Positions 1 to 13,443 of a stretch of DNA of 64,000 nucleotides are shown one piece after another. The notes under the pieces were generated by a model. The model was given only the letters and a program-made list of their open reading frames with translations. It made no database searches and was not told the DNA's origin. The DNA is from Escherichia phage Andreotti, in the sequence record MN850610.1. One strand, given 5' to 3'. Position 1 is the first letter of the stretch; the number at the start of each line of letters is the position of its first letter. A program made the translations under genes and the position numbers.

Positions 1-90
1 TGCAGACCACACTCAGGTCTGGCTCTCTATAAAAACCTACCTGCACAAATCTAAAATGATTTTTCTTGCCCGACCTGAGTGTGGTCTGCA
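1..90. repeat. perfect 19-bp inverted repeat (arms 1-19 and 72-90); may extend beyond window start
   Basis: tgcagaccacactcaggtc (1-19) is the exact reverse complement of gacctgagtgtggtctgca (72-90). Confidence 0.8.
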
Positions 91-227
91 CGTTTTGAAA
101 ATGAAAAAGCTCTTTGGAGATTATCTGCACAGTTTGAAAATGAATTTTCTCTTTGGAGTTCAAAATTCTCTCTACAGATTTCTCTACAGAACTCTACCTG
201 CACAATTCTGAAATGAAAAAGCCCTCC
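41..227. repeat. four degenerate direct repeats CTGCAC-N-TTTGAAAATGAA-(AAAAGC/TTTTCT)-CTTTGGAG (approx 41-68, 86-118, 125-158, 198-227)
   Basis: read directly: ctgcacaaatctaaaatga / ctgcacgttttgaaaatgaaaaagctctttggag / ctgcacagtttgaaaatgaattttctctttggag / ctgcacaattctgaaatgaaaaagc. Confidence 0.7.
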
Positions 228-289
228 TTACCTGAAAAATTTACCAGATAAGAAAGGCTTAGGCTATTGTGAATATCCTACAGAGTTTC

Positions 290-1075
290 TTAGTTCTTTG
301 CGTCTAAGAAGGTAACTTCTGGTGAAGAGAAAACTGTCTCGATATCCTCATCAGTTCTTGCATAGATATAAGTATCTGCATCACTGCCAAATGTTACTGC
401 AATCCTGTGATTGCTCTTCGACAGGTGGGTAACTAGAGCGTTACTCAGAGACATCTTTTCAACCGGAGGGTTACTTTGATGTATCTTACCTTTTCTTCGT
501 CTGAAGAGGGTAACTGCGTTATCTGTGAACACTGCTACACCTGCAAAGTATTCTGGTTCACAGTAGTTCTTCCAACCTGAGCGTAACTTGTGGTACATCT
601 CTCCTTCGTAGACATAAAGATACACATCTACACTCTTCATCACCTGATTAATGATAACTGTGACGGCTTGAGGGTCTAGCCCACCGATACCTGCACCAAT
701 CATAGGTAAACCAACCTTCTTCAACTGGTTGACTTCACAGTATCTGTTAAGCTGCTTCAAAGATGACTCTAAAGCACTGTATCGGGCATCTTTACCAGTC
801 TTAAGCTGAGTGTAAAGGTTAGCTATACGGCCTTGTTCTAAACGTGCTACAGAGAAATTACCCAGTAAATTTTCACAGGGTTTGTGGCCTATACCACCTG
901 CATATAGATAAACTTCTGTATCGGTCTCATATGCTTTTGGGTAAAGTTTAGAAATCTTGTCAGCGATACCTGCACCCATTAAATTCATACAGTTGCAACC
1001 GTGACCGATGATGTCAAACTTACCTTTATCAAATGCGGCAAAGATATCACCATTGATTATTTTTACAATACCCAT
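290..1075 (-). CDS. macro-domain-like (ADP-ribose binding/processing) protein, N-terminal half; C-terminal half unassigned
   Basis: N-terminus IINGDIF...DIIGHGCNCMNLMGAGIADKI fits the macro-domain pattern (GDIT...N...G.GV..AI); family assignment from motif only. Confidence 0.4.
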   Translation of the reverse strand: MGIVKIINGDIFAAFDKGKFDIIGHGCNCMNLMGAGIADKISKLYPKAYETDTEVYLYAGGIGHKPCENLLGNFSVARLEQGRIANLYTQLKTGKDARYSALESSLKQLNRYCEVNQLKKVGLPMIGAGIGGLDPQAVTVIINQVMKSVDVYLYVYEGEMYHKLRSGWKNYCEPEYFAGVAVFTDNAVTLFRRRKGKIHQSNPPVEKMSLSNALVTHLSKSNHRIAVTFGSDADTYIYARTDEDIETVFSSPEVTFLDAKN

Positions 1076-2628: not shown

Positions 2629-3093
2629 TTAACCGAGGACTTTAGCAAGGATATTTGCAGCCATCGAAGAAGCTTTTGCAGCAGCAACTACGCCAGCTTT
2701 GACAGTGCTATCCTTGATAGCAGATACCGTTGCAGCATCAGTAAAGAGATAAGTAGTTGTTTTAGAACCACTTGTAAAGGAAAGCATAAGAGCAGTTTCC
2801 AGATTGAAAGAGCGATACGGAGCACCTTCTTTAACGATACCTTCAGCACCTAATTCTGAAGCCATCCCCATATCATAGATAGTCATCAGGTTTTCTTTGT
2901 GTGCTGTGGTTGAGCCAGAACCTTTTACGTGTTTCTTAACATTCAAAAGAGCACGATACTCTCGGATGTTACCGTCTGCTTTTACGTTGACAGCACGGAA
3001 AATTTTACCCTCAAAGTTGCTCTTGATAATGTTACGAACTACTTCAGATTTGTTTGCCGTAACGTCCAGTGCTACCGTAATGATATTGTTCAT
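2629..3093 (-). CDS. hypothetical protein
   Basis: co-directional ORF; no recognisable motif. Confidence 0.5.
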   Translation of the reverse strand: MNNIITVALDVTANKSEVVRNIIKSNFEGKIFRAVNVKADGNIREYRALLNVKKHVKGSGSTTAHKENLMTIYDMGMASELGAEGIVKEGAPYRSFNLETALMLSFTSGSKTTTYLFTDAATVSAIKDSTVKAGVVAAAKASSMAANILAKVLG

Positions 3094-4325: not shown

Positions 4326-4384
4326 TGGTTCTCCTGTTTAGTTTATCGTGACAACAATTATACAGTACTCTGCACAAAACACAA

Positions 4385-5614: not shown

Positions 5615-7981
5615 TTAATCGTAAATTGTAGTCCCTTCTGGAACACATTTTACATCAAAGCCTAAGAACTTACTCACTTCGATGGGTGACACTTTATTCC
5701 AATCCAAATGAGAAAGCAAGAAGTTTTCTTGTTTTCTTTTTGAAAGGTAGTTTGTCACCTTAATGACCATACGGTCACCAGCTTTCTTAATTTTCTTGTA
5801 AAGCTTTGTATCATTGTCAAGACAGTCTTTCAAAGTTTTCAATACACTAACAGTATAAGTGTATGCAAATGGTGCAGCAACGTATTGGATTTTACCGAAC
5901 ATTGCCTCTACAGCCTCTTCATTACCTTCTAAGAAGATAGTTTTGTTTGTGTCTCGTGAATAGCAATAGCCACGAGAAATCTTCCTGTTATTGAACGTAA
6001 AGTTTCTGGCAATAATCCAACTGCTTGTAAGGTCAAGGACACCATTCATATAGATACGTGTCATATACCTGTTATGATTAATCCAATGAACATCAGTTAA
6101 GCTGTCGTTCAAGAGTTTCTCATCTACTTCAATCCAGTCTTCTGGTATCTTTTTCCAATTTGCTTTTCGGAAAATATAGACTGTCTTCCCTGTAACATTA
6201 GCAACTGACTTGGCTACATCTTCTGGAGATGAGCAAAAACATTCGCCATCAACTGTATCACCAACTGCCTTAATGTAAAGCTGAGGTTCTTCAATTGTAT
6301 CGAAGTCCTCTGAAACCTCTTTATAGGAAGCTACACCTTCTGCTGGAACAGCTTTCCAGAGTTTTACAACACCCCTTACAGCTTCTTTGCGCTGGTAATG
6401 GTGCTCCTTATCAGACATTTTCACAATCTTTAACAAGCTTTTATCAAGTTTGTGTAGATTGATTAGGTCGTCTAACTCTTTTTCAGTCGAGAATACAAAC
6501 ACAATACCATTATATCTGTGAAACAGACTTGACTCACTGGCGTAGTCTCGACATGCACCACGCAGAATCTGATTGCGGCCTACAGTCTTTTCAGTACCGT
6601 TTTTATTGCGACGGTCATTAATCACGAACAAAAACTGTTCAATTTGGCTTTTACGCATTGCACCAAAGATATTGAACATGCTCGCCTCTTGAGTGTAGGA
6701 AAGTGCTGTTGCACGAATCTTACTCTCTAAAGAGTTGAACTTAACATAAGCAACTGGATTGTATAGGTAGTCCACTTTAGGAATGTTGTTTCCTTTACTG
6801 TCAACCTTAATATTACCTTTGCCGTCACGTTCATAGATGACTGAGCCGTCCTCTGCGTAGATAATTCCACGACGAATGTTTAGTAATTCTTCTTCCAGAG
6901 AATCAAGCTTAACACCTCCCCACTCTAGCTTTGGACACACAACATTAAACATCTCTCGTGAGTTCAAGCGTAACTCAGCATAAGCCTGTGCAGCATCCAT
7001 GAGTGTAGGTTGACTATTAACTTTCTTGATAACATCCTTTGTAATTGCTTCAGTTATCTTTTTAGTAGCCTCGATGATAACATTTTTTGTCGTGTCATTC
7101 ATCTGCAATGCTTCACGAGAAGCTGCAATAGCAACTGAACCAATAGGCATGTAGATGTTTACAAGGTCTATGCTCCTGCGGAAAAATTCTGGTAATACTT
7201 TGAAGAAATCATCACCAAGTAATGCCTCCATATTAACTGGGTAGGCAATATTACCCATAACCACGTTAAACTCTGTTCTATTGCTGCTTGAACGCCAGCT
7301 ATGCTTATGAGTCATGGCATCATAGACACCTTCTTCACGAGCAATCACATCCATATCTGCTAATATATCATTATACTCCACATTACTCTCTGGTTTTACA
7401 GCAAAGTATGAGTATACATTACCAGCCTCTTCAAAGAACTTTGAAATACGGTGGTCAGCAACTGCCACACGTACAGCTAAACCATTAGGTTCATTTGTTT
7501 GGTTAGTAGTAAGCTTAGTTACTTGAGGGATACCATTCTCAAGGTAAACAGAGTACTTATTAACAACACCATCAACATAGCTAGATACTGTGAATGACTG
7601 AGCAATTGCAAACGGTGACTTTGAGCCGATACCCATTGCACCAATGTAGTCATTAGAGTCATTCTTCGTAGAAGCCCCGTAGTTCAGATACAAGCTCATT
7701 ACTTTGTCATGGGTTAAACCAGTTCCAAAGTCACGGACTTCAAAGTAAGGCTCAAATCGAGTAGGCAAATGCACATGGAACGGGATGTTTTCTTTTCCAG
7801 CTTCTTTCTGAGCATCTACTGCGTTACATGACAGTTCACGAATCACTGCTCGCTCTTTAAACGTGTATACACCAGAACTCAAAAGGCTGAACATTTCAGG
7901 TGTCATTGTAATTTGTGCTTGAGATGTCTCCAAAGAAGTTGAACTCTTAATCACTTCTGCGTGGTCGTTTACCATGCGCAT
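5615..7981 (-). CDS. rIIA: rIIA-like protein with N-terminal GHKL-type ATPase fold
   Basis: N-terminal motifs RELSCNAVDA (N-box), VRDFGTGL (G1), GAMGIGSKSPF (G2), matching the pattern remembered for T4 rIIA; about 790 aa. Confidence 0.6.
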   Translation of the reverse strand: MRMVNDHAEVIKSSTSLETSQAQITMTPEMFSLLSSGVYTFKERAVIRELSCNAVDAQKEAGKENIPFHVHLPTRFEPYFEVRDFGTGLTHDKVMSLYLNYGASTKNDSNDYIGAMGIGSKSPFAIAQSFTVSSYVDGVVNKYSVYLENGIPQVTKLTTNQTNEPNGLAVRVAVADHRISKFFEEAGNVYSYFAVKPESNVEYNDILADMDVIAREEGVYDAMTHKHSWRSSSNRTEFNVVMGNIAYPVNMEALLGDDFFKVLPEFFRRSIDLVNIYMPIGSVAIAASREALQMNDTTKNVIIEATKKITEAITKDVIKKVNSQPTLMDAAQAYAELRLNSREMFNVVCPKLEWGGVKLDSLEEELLNIRRGIIYAEDGSVIYERDGKGNIKVDSKGNNIPKVDYLYNPVAYVKFNSLESKIRATALSYTQEASMFNIFGAMRKSQIEQFLFVINDRRNKNGTEKTVGRNQILRGACRDYASESSLFHRYNGIVFVFSTEKELDDLINLHKLDKSLLKIVKMSDKEHHYQRKEAVRGVVKLWKAVPAEGVASYKEVSEDFDTIEEPQLYIKAVGDTVDGECFCSSPEDVAKSVANVTGKTVYIFRKANWKKIPEDWIEVDEKLLNDSLTDVHWINHNRYMTRIYMNGVLDLTSSWIIARNFTFNNRKISRGYCYSRDTNKTIFLEGNEEAVEAMFGKIQYVAAPFAYTYTVSVLKTLKDCLDNDTKLYKKIKKAGDRMVIKVTNYLSKRKQENFLLSHLDWNKVSPIEVSKFLGFDVKCVPEGTTIYD

Positions 7982-8009
7982 AATACTTTCCTCTCAGTTT
8001 ACTGTTAAA

Positions 8010-8186
8010 TTACTTATTAAACATTTTACCAGAACCACCACACATAGGGCAACATCCTGCCCTTATGTACCCCTCTCCATTACAGTAGTCACATTTTTTG
8101 TGCTCTGCAAAGTACTTACAAAGGAGGTAAACAAATACTGCTACACTACCAAGTGACAGTAAAATTTCTATCCAATATGCTTGCAT
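8010..8186 (-). CDS. small membrane-anchored protein with DnaJ-type zinc finger (58 aa, not in ORF track)
   Basis: hand-translated MQAYWIEILLSLGSVAVFVYLLCKYFAEHKKCDYCNGEGYIRAGCCPMCGGSGKMFNK; two CxxCxGxG repeats; GAGAGGTGA Shine-Dalgarno upstream. Confidence 0.35.
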   Translation of the reverse strand: MQAYWIEILLSLGSVAVFVYLLCKYFAEHKKCDYCNGEGYIRAGCCPMCGGSGKMFNK

Positions 8187-8503
8187 GACTCACCTCTCAT
8201 ATTTTTGTAAAGGATAAAGCTTCTGTCATGGACAATACTTGTAGACACTGCAAAGTTACTTTCAAGCATCTGTTTGTTTGGATTGTAGAAGCTTTCTTTA
8301 AACTCGTCAAGTGCAAATTGGTGATTGTCTGGAAGACCTTTTACACAGACTTTTATTGTGATTGCTGCTGCAATCTTACCAGTCAGTTCTTCTTTAGCTG
8401 CTACTAAAATTTTGTTAAGGAACTTTTTACCATCTTCAGGTTTCTTAATGTTCTCCCAACGTTCTTCTAGGACAACGTTAATGTTCATTTCTTTGATTTT
8501 CAT
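8168..8503 (-). CDS. hypothetical protein
   Basis: co-directional ORF; no recognisable motif. Confidence 0.5.
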   Translation of the reverse strand: MKIKEMNINVVLEERWENIKKPEDGKKFLNKILVAAKEELTGKIAAAITIKVCVKGLPDNHQFALDEFKESFYNPNKQMLESNFAVSTSIVHDRSFILYKNMRGESCKHIG

Positions 8504-12719: not shown

Positions 12720-13076
12720 TTAAAGTTTAATACAGAACTTATGGAGTTCTTCTTCAGTGATACCGATTGGAGTTACACCTTCTCTGATGTTTTGAATCCT
12801 GTAGAAGTCTCCAAATTTATCTGACTCGTGTATGGCAAAGGTGACATTCTTTACAATCGTTGCAAGAGCACATAATGAATGTGCACCAAATTTTTCTCTT
12901 GTATAAATAATCCAGGCATCTAACTTGTTGATGTCATAAGTCCACTTGCCAGAATAATCATTCTGCTCGCCATTGACAATCGCCTTGCCATCCATACTCT
13001 TTTCTCCAGAGGTTTTGGTTATCAGAACCACGATATGGTTTAACTGTTGGTTTAGACGAATCATACTTACCATCAA
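12720..13076 (-). CDS. hypothetical protein; true start probably downstream of the track start
   Basis: track start is TTG and overlaps the nrdG 3' end by about 119 nt. Confidence 0.3.
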   Translation of the reverse strand: MMVSMIRLNQQLNHIVVLITKTSGEKSMDGKAIVNGEQNDYSGKWTYDINKLDAWIIYTREKFGAHSLCALATIVKNVTFAIHESDKFGDFYRIQNIREGVTPIGITEEELHKFCIKL

Positions 13077-13443
13077 TCACCACGTCAACATATTTCATTA
13101 CATCTAAGTGGATTTTTTCGTGCAGTTGAAAACCTGTCCAAAGCCATATAGACTTTTCTGGATAAACAGTTTTAATACGCTTGCATATGTTGGTGACCTC
13201 TTGAATGTTTCTGTCATCCAGAGGCTCCCCACCAAGTATTGACAGCCCACTGATAGCATTATCATCCATTAACTTAATGATGCCGTAGAGGTTTGCATAG
13301 GTAAACTCTTTACCAGCATTAAACTTCCAAGACTCCCTGTTAAAGCAGCCTTCACAGTGATGCTTACAACCAGCTACGAAGAGGCTTACACGAACCCCTT
13401 CACCATTAGCTGTGTCAAATGGTCTAATCTCCATGTAATTCAT
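12958..13443 (-). CDS. nrdG: anaerobic ribonucleotide reductase activating protein (radical SAM)
   Basis: CKHHCEGC (CxxxCxxC) radical-SAM motif near N-terminus, about 160 aa, RGSDNQ near C-terminus. Confidence 0.7.
   Translation of the reverse strand: MNYMEIRPFDTANGEGVRVSLFVAGCKHHCEGCFNRESWKFNAGKEFTYANLYGIIKLMDDNAISGLSILGGEPLDDRNIQEVTNICKRIKTVYPEKSIWLWTGFQLHEKIHLDVMKYVDVVIDGKYDSSKPTVKPYRGSDNQNLWRKEYGWQGDCQWRAE

What the first reader, a model, noticed from the sequence alone, without database searches (positions are those of the whole stretch)
1..289. Non-coding region at window start with a perfect 19-bp inverted repeat and four 25-35 bp direct repeats
Positions 1-19 and 72-90 form an exact inverted repeat, whose right arm merges into the first of four direct repeats of consensus CTGCAC-N-TTTGAAAATGAA-(AAAAGC)-CTCTTTGGAG. 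The region lies downstream of the macro-domain-like gene and continues past the window edge. Iterated repeats plus a long palindrome are typical of replication origins, packaging sites or clustered regulator-binding sites.
Basis: seen in the sequence. Interest (0 to 1): 0.5.

Follow-up and report, generated by a model that had tools for sequence, protein, structure and literature searches.

The report
Assembly-artefact palindrome beside conserved phage repeats
The "perfect palindrome" at the window start is most likely a sequencing/assembly fold-back artefact. The four direct repeats next to it are a real non-coding element of unknown function, conserved in all Felix O1-like phages, and they are not the genome ends.

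Summary
The window is a Felix O1-like myophage (Felixounavirus). Positions 1-289 are the gene-13-proximal part of a ~500-bp untranslated gap between two early gene blocks.

Both observations are present in the sequence and are far beyond chance.

**The inverted repeat is probably not biological.**
- Its left arm (nt 1-15/16) is absent from 291 related phage records and all IMG/VR relatives. They carry a G-quadruplex/H-DNA polypurine tract there instead.
- Other assemblies break at that same tract.
- One snap-back at a natural 7/8 inverted repeat reproduces the window's first 100 nt exactly.

**The four repeats are real.**
- Core: yCTGCAC-N6-AAAATGA-W5-SC.
- They occur at one locus per genome, in one orientation, in five Ounavirinae lineages.
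- The fourth repeat supplies the U-tract of the published terminator t13.
- They are not the termini; the mapped terminal repeat lies 4.6 kb away.
- They are not coding, not a structured RNA and not a dispersed promoter class.

My best guess is a DNA-level array of protein-binding sites that controls the early region. An origin of replication or a plus-strand non-coding RNA remain possible.

Interest is modest.

The parts
1..16 (.). Left arm of the 'perfect' inverted repeat. It is a reverse-complement copy of window 75-90 and is most likely a fold-back artefact at the start of the contig.
   Evidence: No alignment among 291 related phage records starts upstream of window nt 13, and most start at 16-19. 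The six IMG/VR relatives that hold this stretch carry other sequence there. The junction pattern is not found in viral or metagenome contigs. A simulated snap-back on the LMP33 sequence reproduces window 1-100 exactly.
17..24 (.). Natural half-site GGTCTGGC, which pairs 7/8 with 67-74. This is the microhomology that would prime the snap-back.
   Evidence: Present in LMP33, LMP34, UAB_Phi87 and EC106. It is the only complementary site found for the 3' terminal 8-mer.
67..74 (.). Natural half-site GCCCGACC, the partner of 17-24. It is part of the tail of repeat unit 1.
   Evidence: Conserved TTGCCCGACC tail.
72..90 (.). Right arm of the inverted repeat. It is natural sequence: a variable spacer (75-86) followed by the 5' flank of unit 2.
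   Evidence: Positions 79-86 are among the most polymorphic in this stretch across 24 distinct Felixounavirus/Suspvirus sequences. The left arm copies this isolate's own allele, GAGTGTGG.
38..65 (+). Repeat unit 1 core (TACCTGCACAAATCTAAAATGATTTTTC). The orientation is that of the written consensus; the acting strand is unknown.
   Evidence: Weight-matrix score 34.7 bits. Orthologous unit found in all 11 genomes compared.
83..110 (+). Repeat unit 2 core (GGTCTGCACGTTTTGAAAATGAAAAAGC).
   Evidence: 36.3 bits..
122..149 (+). Repeat unit 3 core (TATCTGCACAGTTTGAAAATGAATTTTC).
   Evidence: 36.6 bits. Missing in the BPS17L1/phiWec177 lineage, which has three units.
195..222 (+). Repeat unit 4 core (TACCTGCACAATTCTGAAATGAAAAAGC). 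Its A-run is the complement of the U-tract of terminator t13.
   Evidence: 37.2 bits. Overlaps the terminator tail.
24..33 (+). Secondary motif TCTCTATAAA, the 5' extension of unit 1.
   Evidence: Direct-repeat family D3, 24-59 vs 181-216, 83% identity. The same motif occurs twice upstream of the units in Hafnia phage Zyzzx.
169..190 (+). Two tandem copies of TCTCTACAGA (169-178 and 181-190). They form the 5' extension of unit 4.
209..260 (-). Intrinsic terminator of gene 13, published as t13. The hairpin is at 260-219 and the U-tract at 218-209.
   Evidence: Scan hit with 17 pairs. Listed as t13, 7947..7994, in Whichard 2010 Table 2. The stem is kept with different sequences in Mordin, ESh21 and Silverhawkium. 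Its G.U pairs make it specific to the minus strand.
290..1075 (-). Gene 13: Macro-domain protein annotated as 'phosphatase' / ADP-ribose-binding.
   Evidence: Pfam Macro E = 1.2e-7. phrog_335 E = 2e-113. Felix O1 ORF13.

Best explanation
Two different things sit at the window start.

**1. The inverted repeat is probably an artefact.** Nucleotides 1-16 are probably not phage sequence in this arrangement.
- In relatives, the DNA just left of window nt 17 is a 31-nt homopurine mirror repeat, GGGGAGAGGGGGAG-TAA-GAGGGGGAGAGGGG. It matches both the G-quadruplex and the H-DNA sequence patterns.
- I infer that a polymerase copying towards it stalled. The nascent 3' end GCCAGACC then snapped back onto the natural near-complement GGTCGGGC 44 nt behind it and was extended.
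- That gives an inverted copy of nt 75-90. The assembler used such a chimeric molecule to cap a contig that breaks at the G-tract.
- This sequence of events is inferred, not observed.

**2. The four direct repeats are genuine.** They form an array of ~28-nt units with core yCTGCAC-RWWTYN-AAAATGA-W5-SC.
- The array occurs once per genome and always in the same orientation.
- It lies between the intrinsic terminator of the Macro-domain gene 13 and a conserved TTGACT box with a divergent promoter pair.
- Unit 4 doubles as the terminator's U-tract.

**Proposed mechanism.** The units most likely act at the DNA level as clustered binding sites for one sequence-specific protein, of phage or host origin. 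The protein would contact GCAC and AAAATGA about one helical turn apart, next to an orientation-free A/T tract. The resulting complex would sit at the border between the gene 1-13 block and the gene 14-23 early block. There it would set termination or read-through, or the activity of the adjacent early promoters.

- **Shown:** the anatomy, the conservation and the exclusions.
- **Inferred:** the binding protein and its effect.
For: **Identity of the region.** The window is 96-98% identical to Felixounavirus genomes, reverse-complemented relative to the Felix O1 record.

**Artefact.**
- No alignment among 291 related records starts upstream of window nt 13, and most start at 16-19. LMP33, LMP34 and LMP25 are 100% identical from nt 16 onward.
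- Relatives have the G-tract where the left arm sits.
- Independent assemblies end in or next to that tract: LMP34 'partial genome', EC106, and IMG/VR contigs L011, L015 (with a Nextera adapter at its end), L053, L013 and L040 (an E. coli mukB chimera).
- Of the broken assemblies whose upstream sequence can be read, all carry the G-tract allele. About 40% of relatives carry a different allele there.
- The right arm lies in one of the most polymorphic segments, and the left arm copies this isolate's own allele.
- The snap-back simulation reproduces window 1-100 exactly.

**Repeats.**
- There are 3-4 units in 11 genomes from Felixounavirus, Suspvirus, Mooglevirus, Kolesnikvirus and Hafnia phage Zyzzx.
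- GCAC, T7, AAAAT and GA are invariant or nearly so in 30 distinct units.
- In the Erwinia and Hafnia phages the units are among the few stretches with detectable nucleotide similarity to Felix O1.
- Only four sites exist across the whole genome, which I reconstructed from the 64-kb window plus the 31 kb of Felix O1 that the window does not cover; the next best site scores 11 bits.
- There is no base-pair covariation on either strand outside the terminator.
- The W5 block flips between A5 and T5 among units and among orthologues. That is neutral for DNA shape but not for an RNA.
- The region is transcribed: the Felix O1 'ORF14' RT-PCR amplicon was positive, peaking at 25 min, while ORF13 and ORF16 peak at 5 min.
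Against: **Artefact.**
- I could not see the raw reads or the source record. 'Window start = contig start' is inferred only from the coincidence of the homology break with nt 1-16.
- A real, very recent inverted duplication in this isolate is not formally excluded.

**Repeats as binding sites.**
- No binding protein is identified.
- The neighbouring small genes have no recognisable DNA-binding domain.
- Unit spacing is only loosely in helical phase: 37-55 and 73-77 nt, or 3.5-7.3 turns.
- A-tract periodicity reaches only about the 95-99th percentile of genome windows.
- A plus-strand promoter-like element points into the array. It is TTGACT-N17-TAAGAG or TAGCCT in the Felix O1 group, and a 10/12 match, TTGACC-N18-TATACT, in the Erwinia phage. 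An RNA-level role for an unstructured motif is therefore not excluded.
- I found no paper describing or testing these repeats.
Confidence: 0.45

Rival explanations
1. The repeats, together with the adjacent promoter and the G-rich tract, form a transcription-primed origin of replication. This would be the analogue of the T7 primary origin in a phage that uses host RNA polymerase.
For: - The element is unique in the genome.
- The replisome is T7-type: a Toprim + DnaB_C primase-helicase, a family-A polymerase and a ligase.
- A promoter-like TTGACT box points into the array, and a G-rich non-template strand lies at its start.
- There are 3-4 iterated units, reminiscent of the lambda origin (own knowledge).
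Against: - There is no A+T-rich unwinding element. GC is 0.34-0.39 against a genome median of 0.39.
- Cumulative GC skew shows no inflection at the locus; the skew follows transcription units.
- No initiator gene is nearby.
- The -10 of the plus-strand promoter lacks the conserved final T in G-type genomes.
- The G-tract is replaced by unrelated sequence in about 40% of relatives.
Confidence: 0.15
2. The array is the body of a plus-strand non-coding RNA transcribed from the TTGACT promoter. The four single-stranded A-rich modules would act as a sponge or decoy for an RNA-binding protein or nuclease, or as an antisense RNA to the 3' end of gene 13.
For: - The TTGACT box is conserved at fixed spacing, including where the downstream sequence has been replaced. 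The Erwinia phage has a strong plus-strand promoter.
- The region is transcribed with timing different from its neighbours.
- AAAAUGA is invariant in every unit.
Against: - No covariation or conserved fold on either strand.
- No Rfam match.
- A5/T5 flips are not equivalent in RNA.
- There is no plus-strand terminator. The t13 hairpin relies on G.U pairs that become A.C mismatches on the plus strand.
- The units are only 66-83% alike with variable spacing, unlike type III antitoxin arrays.
- Nothing similar occurs in plasmids or E. coli genomes.
- The published RT-PCR was not strand-specific.
Confidence: 0.15
3. The 19-bp inverted repeat is real in this isolate: a recent inverted duplication that forms a hairpin or cruciform with regulatory or replicative function.
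For: The arms are exact and would fold strongly. The window edge cuts the left arm, so the true arm could be longer.
Against: - It is unique among about 300 relatives.
- The break coincides with the first 16 bases of the sequence.
- It replaces a region that holds the conserved promoters of the next gene block.
- The right arm is not conserved.
- The same site is a hotspot for contig ends, adapters and chimeras.
Confidence: 0.08
4. The units are low-affinity DnaA boxes. Together they would make a T5 'injection stop signal'-like checkpoint at the inner border of the terminal ~5-kb early block, or a DnaA-titrating site.
For: - All four Erwinia-phage units read CTATGCACA or TTATGCACG, 8/9 to TTATNCACA.
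- The locus lies about 4.6-5.2 kb (about 6%) from the right physical end.
- The T5 injection stop signal is a conserved untranslated repeat region with DnaA boxes (10.1101/866236).
Against: - In the window and all Felixounavirus, Suspvirus and Mooglevirus genomes, the boxes match only 5-7/9.
- Two-step DNA transfer has never been reported for this group.
- The T5 DnaA model is itself only in silico.
Confidence: 0.04
5. The repeats are functionless relics: duplicated terminator tails that persist as recombination joints between mosaic modules.
For: - Unit 4 is part of a terminator tail.
- A unit-like sequence follows terminator t2 at window ~4340-4375.
- Lineages with a different gene-13 allele switch sequence exactly inside unit 2.
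Against: Relics would not keep 12 or more invariant positions, the same number and the same order of unit types. These features persist across lineages whose flanking genes have diverged to 73% identity or lower, or beyond nucleotide detection.
Confidence: 0.08
6. The region is a packaging site or genome terminus, or it encodes small proteins (annotated ORFs such as Felix O1 ORF14, LMP33 hypothetical proteins and Mordin gp014).
For: Several records start or end here. Gene callers place short ORFs on both strands.
Against: - The mapped terminal repeat is elsewhere.
- The terminase gene is about 22 kb away.
- The record ends are explained by the G-tract.
- The ORFs differ in strand, start and length between genomes. 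Unit spacing breaks the frame in Mordin, phiEa104 and Zyzzx.
- There is no family support.
Confidence: 0.02

Closest known systems
Snap-back (fold-back) inverted chimeras at contig ends
   Same: An inverted copy of nearby sequence sits at the first bases of the sequence. It is joined at a short natural inverted repeat (7/8 nt) next to a polymerase-blocking G-rich tract, and it is absent from all relatives.
   Different: I could not inspect reads. Whether the step that made it was library preparation, amplification or the assembler is unknown.
Iteron arrays of the lambda origin and of plasmid origins
   Same: Three to four same-orientation repeats of about 20-28 bp with A-tracts, at one locus per genome and conserved at the sequence level.
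   Different: The units are 37-77 bp apart rather than about 20. There is no adjacent A+T-rich unwinding element. There is no initiator gene around or near the array, and the replisome is T7-type.
T7 primary origin (promoters followed by an A+T-rich region)
   Same: The replisome is T7-type and a promoter-like element points into an untranslated region.
   Different: The promoter would be a host sigma-70 promoter and is weak in most genomes. T7 has no iterated units. There is no experimental evidence.
T5 injection stop signal region (Davison, bioRxiv 10.1101/866236)
   Same: A strongly conserved, untranslated, repeat-rich region a few kb from a genome end, at the border of a block of small early genes. 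Some lineages have DnaA-box-like 9-mers.
   Different: This region is far smaller and simpler. It lies outside the terminal repeat. The DnaA-box match is poor in Felixounavirus. Two-step transfer is not known in this group.
Felix O1 terminator t13 (Whichard et al. 2010, PMC3185647)
   Same: Window 209-260 (minus strand) is this terminator.
   Different: The paper lists the hairpin only. It does not mention the four units or that the terminator tail is one of them.
Type III toxin-antitoxin antitoxin RNA arrays (ToxI and phage pseudo-ToxI)
   Same: Tandem units of about 36-40 nt with an A-rich motif, preceded by a promoter and followed by a hairpin.
   Different: The units are only 66-83% alike with unequal spacing. 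There is no toxN-like gene, no Rfam hit and no similar host or plasmid locus.

Membership tests
Contig-end fold-back artefact | Lies at the extreme end of the sequence | tested here: met
   The left arm is window nt 1-16/19. That the window start equals the contig start is inferred, not seen.
Contig-end fold-back artefact | Absent from close relatives that are otherwise identical | tested here: met
   No alignment among 291 related records starts upstream of nt 13, and three records are 100% identical from nt 16. IMG/VR relatives also lack it.
Contig-end fold-back artefact | Junction at a short natural inverted repeat, beside a polymerase block | tested here: met
   GGTCTGGC pairs with GCCCGACC at 7/8, next to the G4/H-DNA mirror tract. 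The simulation reproduces nt 1-100.
Contig-end fold-back artefact | Junction unsupported by properly paired or long reads | not testable with these tools
   No read data are available.
Phage packaging site / genome terminus | Coincides with the physical DNA ends or the terminal repeat | tested here: not met
   The UAB_Phi87 terminal repeat (PMC4837284, Fig. S1) maps to Felix O1 12,779-13,341. It is not in the window.
Iteron-type replication origin | Several same-orientation repeats at a unique locus | tested here: met
   Four units at this locus and no other site in the genome.
Iteron-type replication origin | Adjacent A+T-rich DNA unwinding element | tested here: not met
   GC in 200-nt windows is 0.335-0.41, against a genome median of 0.385-0.39 and a 5th percentile of 0.325-0.34.
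Iteron-type replication origin | Cognate initiator protein encoded at or near the iterons | tested here: not met
   The neighbouring genes have no DNA-binding or Rep domain. The replisome is gp4-like primase-helicase plus PolA.
Iteron-type replication origin | Replication starts here | not testable with these tools
   GC skew is uninformative because it follows transcription.
Intrinsic (Rho-independent) terminator | G+C-rich hairpin followed by a U-tract, downstream of a gene, with the stem kept by compensatory change | tested here: met
   Window 260-209, minus strand. Published as t13. The stem is kept with different sequences in three genera.
Sigma-70 promoter class (each unit a promoter) | -35 and -10 hexamers at 16-18 bp spacing, conserved in register, with units dispersed before genes | tested here: not met
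   Isolated consensus hits occur on different strands in different genomes. The units are confined to one locus.
Structured non-coding RNA | Match to a known family, or a conserved fold with covariation | tested here: not met
   No Rfam hit in 1-289 at E <= 5. RNAalifold gives no covariation support on either strand, and compensatory pairs are few.
Type III antitoxin-like RNA repeat array | Near-identical tandem units of fixed length next to a toxN-type gene | tested here: not met
   Unit identity is 66-83% and spacing is 39/45/73. The flanking gene is a Macro-domain gene on the other strand. No host or plasmid counterpart was found.
DnaA-box cluster | 9-mers within one mismatch of TTATNCACA | tested here: not met
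   The window units score 6, 6, 7 and 6 of 9. Only Erwinia phage phiEa104 reaches 8/9 in all four units.
Protein-coding small ORF | Reading frame, start and length conserved among relatives | tested here: not met
   Annotated ORFs differ in strand and extent. Unit spacing is not a multiple of 3 in Mordin, phiEa104 and Zyzzx.

The most novel reading that the evidence does not exclude
The four-unit array, with the neighbouring G-quadruplex/H-DNA tract and divergent promoters, could be an entry or replication checkpoint of Ounavirinae. One version is a T5-injection-stop-like site, where host DnaA or another host protein holds the DNA after the terminal ~5-kb block of small early genes has entered. 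The other is the long-sought origin of a T7-type replisome that is primed by host RNA polymerase.
Probability: 0.12. Interest if true: 0.7.

Novelty: new member of a known kind. Interest (0 to 1): 0.3.

Why it matters
**Practical.** Felix O1-like phages are diagnostic and therapeutic workhorses, and hundreds of their genomes are deposited. This case shows that a conserved G-quadruplex/H-DNA tract repeatedly breaks their assemblies and leaves artefacts at record ends. I saw an inverted copy, an adapter, a host chimera and an N-rich duplicate. Such artefacts can be mistaken for terminal or regulatory structures.

**Biological.** The four-unit array is one of the most conserved non-coding elements of the subfamily, and I found no description of it. 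How transcription is timed and where replication starts are both unknown for this group; Whichard 2010 states the former explicitly. A unique cis element at the border of two early blocks is therefore a concrete place to start.

Tried and rejected
- **tRNA/tmRNA scan of the window:** none found.
- **Rfam at E <= 5:** nothing in 1-289.
- **Identifying the source contig by the junction sequence:** no hit in IMG/VR or JGI metagenomes. Nothing in the phage collection is more than 98% identical to the first 3 kb.
- **Packaging site or terminus:** rejected after mapping the published terminal repeat.
- **KhF1 'two places in record':** I first suspected a terminal repeat. It proved to be a low-quality, N-rich overlap.
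- **Sigma-70 promoters in each unit, on either strand:** only scattered matches that are not in register. By eye I also compared sigma-54, the marbox, and Fur, IHF, Fis, CRP and MotA boxes, and found no convincing fit. These comparisons rest on recalled consensus sequences, not on a tool.
- **RNA structure:** no covariation support.
- **Coding potential of the short ORFs:** rejected.
- **Host or plasmid counterparts of the array (antitoxin mimicry):** none.
- **Arrays outside Ounavirinae:** 29 of 30 IMG/VR hits are phages of about 51-94 kb of this group. The single 182-kb contig looks unrelated.
- **GC skew:** follows transcription and shows no signal at the locus.
- **A-tract periodicity and A+T richness:** unremarkable to mildly elevated.
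- **DNA-binding domains in neighbouring genes:** none.
- **Literature:** no paper describing these repeats or a Felix O1-type transcriptome.
Full report
**What the window is.** The first 3 kb match 257 phage records. The best matches are Felixounavirus genomes at 96-98% identity, in reverse orientation relative to the Felix O1 reference. In Felix O1 the genes run rIIA ... ORF13 (Macro-domain 'phosphatase', 7130-7915), then a ~500-bp gap, then ORF15 onward, all on one strand. Window 290-1075 (minus strand) is ORF13 (Pfam Macro, phrog_335). Window 1-289 is therefore the part of the untranslated gap that lies next to gene 13. The rest of the gap lies beyond the window edge. In the closest complete relative, LMP33, the gap is L003 2754-3274.

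**Checking the observation.** Both features are in the sequence as described.
- Positions 1-19 and 72-90 are exactly complementary, or 23 nt with one mismatch.
- In 300 dinucleotide shuffles the longest exact arm was 13. The fold energy has z = -8.5.
- Four same-orientation repeats are present at 38-65, 83-110, 122-149 and 195-222.
- A weight matrix built from related phages scores them at 34.7-37.2 bits. The next best site in the window scores 10.3 bits.

**The inverted repeat is most likely an artefact.**
- No alignment among 291 related records starts upstream of window nt 13, and most start at 16-19. Three relatives (LMP33, LMP34, LMP25) are 100% identical from nt 16 onward.
- Where the window has TGCAGACCACACTCA, relatives have ...CTTGACTTTTGGGGAGAGGGGGAGTAAGAGGGGGAGAGGGGTT, followed by GGTCTGGCTCTC.
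- That tract is a perfect 14+3+14 homopurine mirror repeat, which is the H-DNA type. It also fits the canonical four-G-run quadruplex pattern.
- The tract is a recurrent breakpoint for assemblies. LMP34 ('partial genome') and EC106 end inside it. So do IMG/VR contigs L011 and L015, the latter with an untrimmed Nextera adapter. L053 starts just upstream of it and L013 ends in unit 2. L040 begins with E. coli mukB fused to the phage at a shared CCCGACCTGA.
- Of the broken assemblies whose upstream sequence can be read, all carry the G-type allele. About 40% of relatives carry a different sequence there.
- The natural sequence contains an imperfect 8-nt inverted repeat, GGTCTGGC (17-24) and GCCCGACC (67-74).
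- I simulated a nascent strand that copies towards the G-tract, stops at its edge, snaps back on this repeat and is extended. The simulation reproduces the first 100 nt of the window exactly from the LMP33 sequence.
- The right arm lies in one of the most polymorphic segments of the region (positions 79-86). The left arm copies this isolate's own allele.
- The junction sequence is not found in IMG/VR or JGI metagenome contigs. The window does not contain the other side of the break.
- I could not see reads, so this remains an inference. I put it at about 0.85.

**Not the genome ends.** The 608-bp direct terminal repeat of the close relative UAB_Phi87 was determined by Bal31 digestion and run-off sequencing (PMC4837284). 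It is not in the window. In Felix O1 it maps to record positions 12,779-13,341, between ORF23 and ORF24. That is 4.6 kb from this locus. The terminase gene is at about 30.6 kb. The records that start or end here are explained by the G-tract. The KhF1 'second copy' is a low-quality, N-rich overlap.

**What is really there.** Read in the direction of transcription (window minus strand), the order is:
1. The stop codon of gene 13.
2. The published intrinsic terminator t13: hairpin 260-219 and U-tract 218-209.
3. The four units.
4. Outside the window: the polypyrimidine complement of the G-tract, a nearly invariant CTTGACTTTT box, conserved A/T-rich DNA, and a strong sigma-70 promoter for the next early gene (TTGACT-N17-TAGTAT).

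The t13 stem is kept with different sequences in other genera. It relies on G.U pairs, so it works only in the minus-strand RNA. Unit 4 overlaps the terminator, and its A-run is the complement of the U-tract.

**Conservation of the units.**
- The same architecture, with three or four units in the same orientation and position, is found in Felixounavirus, Suspvirus (SUSP2), Mooglevirus (Mordin, ESh21, Silverhawkium), Kolesnikvirus (Erwinia phage phiEa104) and Hafnia phage Zyzzx.
- Thirty distinct units align without gaps. GCAC, AAAAT and a following A are invariant. A T at +7, GA at +15/16 and a C at +22 are nearly invariant.
- The consensus is ta-yCTGCAC-RWWTYN-AAAATGA-W5-SC.
- Within the genus the cores are invariant while the spacers vary.
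- In the Erwinia and Hafnia phages the units are among the few stretches with nucleotide similarity to Felix O1.
- Across the whole genome, which I reconstructed from the 64-kb window plus the 31 kb of Felix O1 that the window does not cover, only these four sites score above 12 bits.
- In IMG/VR the two-unit pattern occurs almost only in contigs of this phage group.
- Nothing similar exists in 72,556 plasmids or 5,426 E. coli genomes.

**What the units are not.**
- They are not coding. Annotated ORFs over them differ in strand, start and length. They have no family support. Unit spacing breaks the frame outside Felixounavirus.
- They are not a known or structured RNA. There is no Rfam match and no covariation support on either strand.
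- They are not a promoter class. Consensus hits are sporadic, fall on different strands in different genomes and are not in register. The element is confined to one locus.
- They are not good DnaA boxes in this phage, at 6-7 of 9. All four Erwinia-phage units reach 8 of 9.

**Most likely mechanism.** The evidence has five parts:
- sequence-level rather than structure-level conservation;
- a single locus per genome;
- fixed orientation;
- two invariant blocks about one helical turn apart;
- an adjoining A/T block that flips freely between A5 and T5 among units and orthologues.

The flip is neutral for DNA shape but not for an RNA. I therefore favour a DNA-level array of binding sites for one sequence-specific protein. 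The array would sit at the border between the gene 1-13 block and the block of small early genes 14-23. It would act on termination or read-through at t13, or on the nearby divergent promoters. The anatomy, conservation and exclusions are shown. The protein and its effect are inferred. I put this at about 0.45.

The region is transcribed. The Felix O1 'ORF14' amplicon (8042-8254, equal to window 162 to about -50 on the minus strand) was RT-PCR positive with a maximum at 25 min. ORF13 and ORF16 peaked at 5 min. That assay was not strand-specific.

**Rivals.**
- *Transcription-primed origin.* This is attractive because the replisome is T7-type and a TTGACT box points into the array. Against it, there is no A+T-rich unwinding element, no skew signal, no initiator gene and a weak -10 in most genomes.
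- *Plus-strand non-coding RNA.* The conserved TTGACT-N17 arrangement supports it, even where the downstream sequence is replaced. So does a 10/12 promoter match in the Erwinia phage. Against it are the A5/T5 flips, the lack of structure and the lack of a plus-strand terminator.
- *T5 injection-stop-like site.* This reading (10.1101/866236) is speculative but not excluded.
- *Functionless relics.* This is unlikely given the depth of conservation.

**Known or new.**
- The terminator is published.
- The palindrome is not a real feature.
- I found no description of the four-unit array or of the mirror-repeat G-tract in the papers I could search. The Felix O1 genome paper lists other direct repeats only.
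- I file the array as a new member of a known kind: clustered direct repeats acting as a cis element in a phage regulatory gap. Its function is untested.
- Interest is modest overall. It would be higher if the array proves to be the origin or an entry checkpoint.

Noticed in passing
Just outside window nt 1; LMP33 L003 2968-2998, Felix O1 L001 5965-5995: A perfect 31-nt homopurine mirror repeat, GGGGAGAGGGGGAG-TAA-GAGGGGGAGAGGGG, which fits both the G-quadruplex and H-DNA patterns, in a 39% G+C phage. It is conserved in Felixounavirus, Suspvirus and Mooglevirus. About 40% of relatives replace it with an unrelated allele that keeps TTGACT-N17-TAGCCT. It is a recurrent assembly breakpoint.
   Followed up: partly
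LMP33 L003 2817-2845 (minus) and 2959-2987 (plus); phiEa104 L018 928-956 (minus) and 991-1020 (plus): A back-to-back promoter-like pair beyond the window edge. One is a strong sigma-70 promoter for the next early gene. The other is a plus-strand TTGACT box aimed at the repeats. The -10 is weak in Felix-type genomes, while the Erwinia phage has a 10/12 match.
   Followed up: partly
IMG/VR loci L040 (first ~200 nt), L015 (last ~40 nt), L011, L053 and L013: Contig-end junk at this same locus: E. coli mukB fused to the phage at a shared CCCGACCTGA, an untrimmed Nextera adapter, and contig ends inside or beside the G-tract.
   Followed up: partly
KT184313.1 (KhF1) record 1-377 vs 87,984-88,356 (L006/L007): The record starts with a low-quality, N-containing duplicate of its own end, covering this intergenic region (89.7% identity). 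It looks like an unresolved assembly overlap rather than a terminal repeat.
   Followed up: yes
GU169904.1 'Staphylococcus phage SA1', 128,687-128,960: A 147-kb record labelled as a Staphylococcus phage carries this Felix O1-type region at 95.6% identity. It is probably a mixed or chimeric record.
   Followed up: no
window ~4340-4375 (minus strand): The tail of terminator t2 (TTTTTTATTTGTGTTTTGTGCAG) resembles a repeat unit (10.3 bits, the best non-locus hit). A perfect TATAAT follows 7 nt later. This could be a terminator-promoter joint related to the units.
   Followed up: partly
window 162-1 and beyond (minus strand); Felix O1 record 8042-8254: Felix O1 'ORF14' (70 aa, pI 10.1, no homologues) runs through units 3-1 and the polypyrimidine tract and is probably not a gene. 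Its RT-PCR amplicon was positive and peaked later (25 min) than the flanking ORF13 and ORF16 (5 min).
   Followed up: partly
Zyzzx L020 ~1125-1170; UAB_Phi87 terminal repeat (PMC4837284, Fig. S1): TGTAAAG occurs four times just upstream of the TTGACT box in the Hafnia phage. The mapped terminal repeat of UAB_Phi87 is densely packed with TGTTAAG/TGTAAAG-type motifs. This may be a second family of binding sites.
   Followed up: no
BPS17L1 L022 969-1044; phiWec177 L023; IMG/VR L012: A lineage with a different gene-13 allele and terminator has only three units. It switches sequence exactly inside unit 2, so the units act as recombination joints between mosaic modules.
   Followed up: partly
L041 1786-1852 (IMG/VR contig of 182 kb): Two GCACC-TTTNAAAAAT-RA units 60 nt apart in an unrelated large phage contig. 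This is probably a chance match to the search pattern.
   Followed up: no
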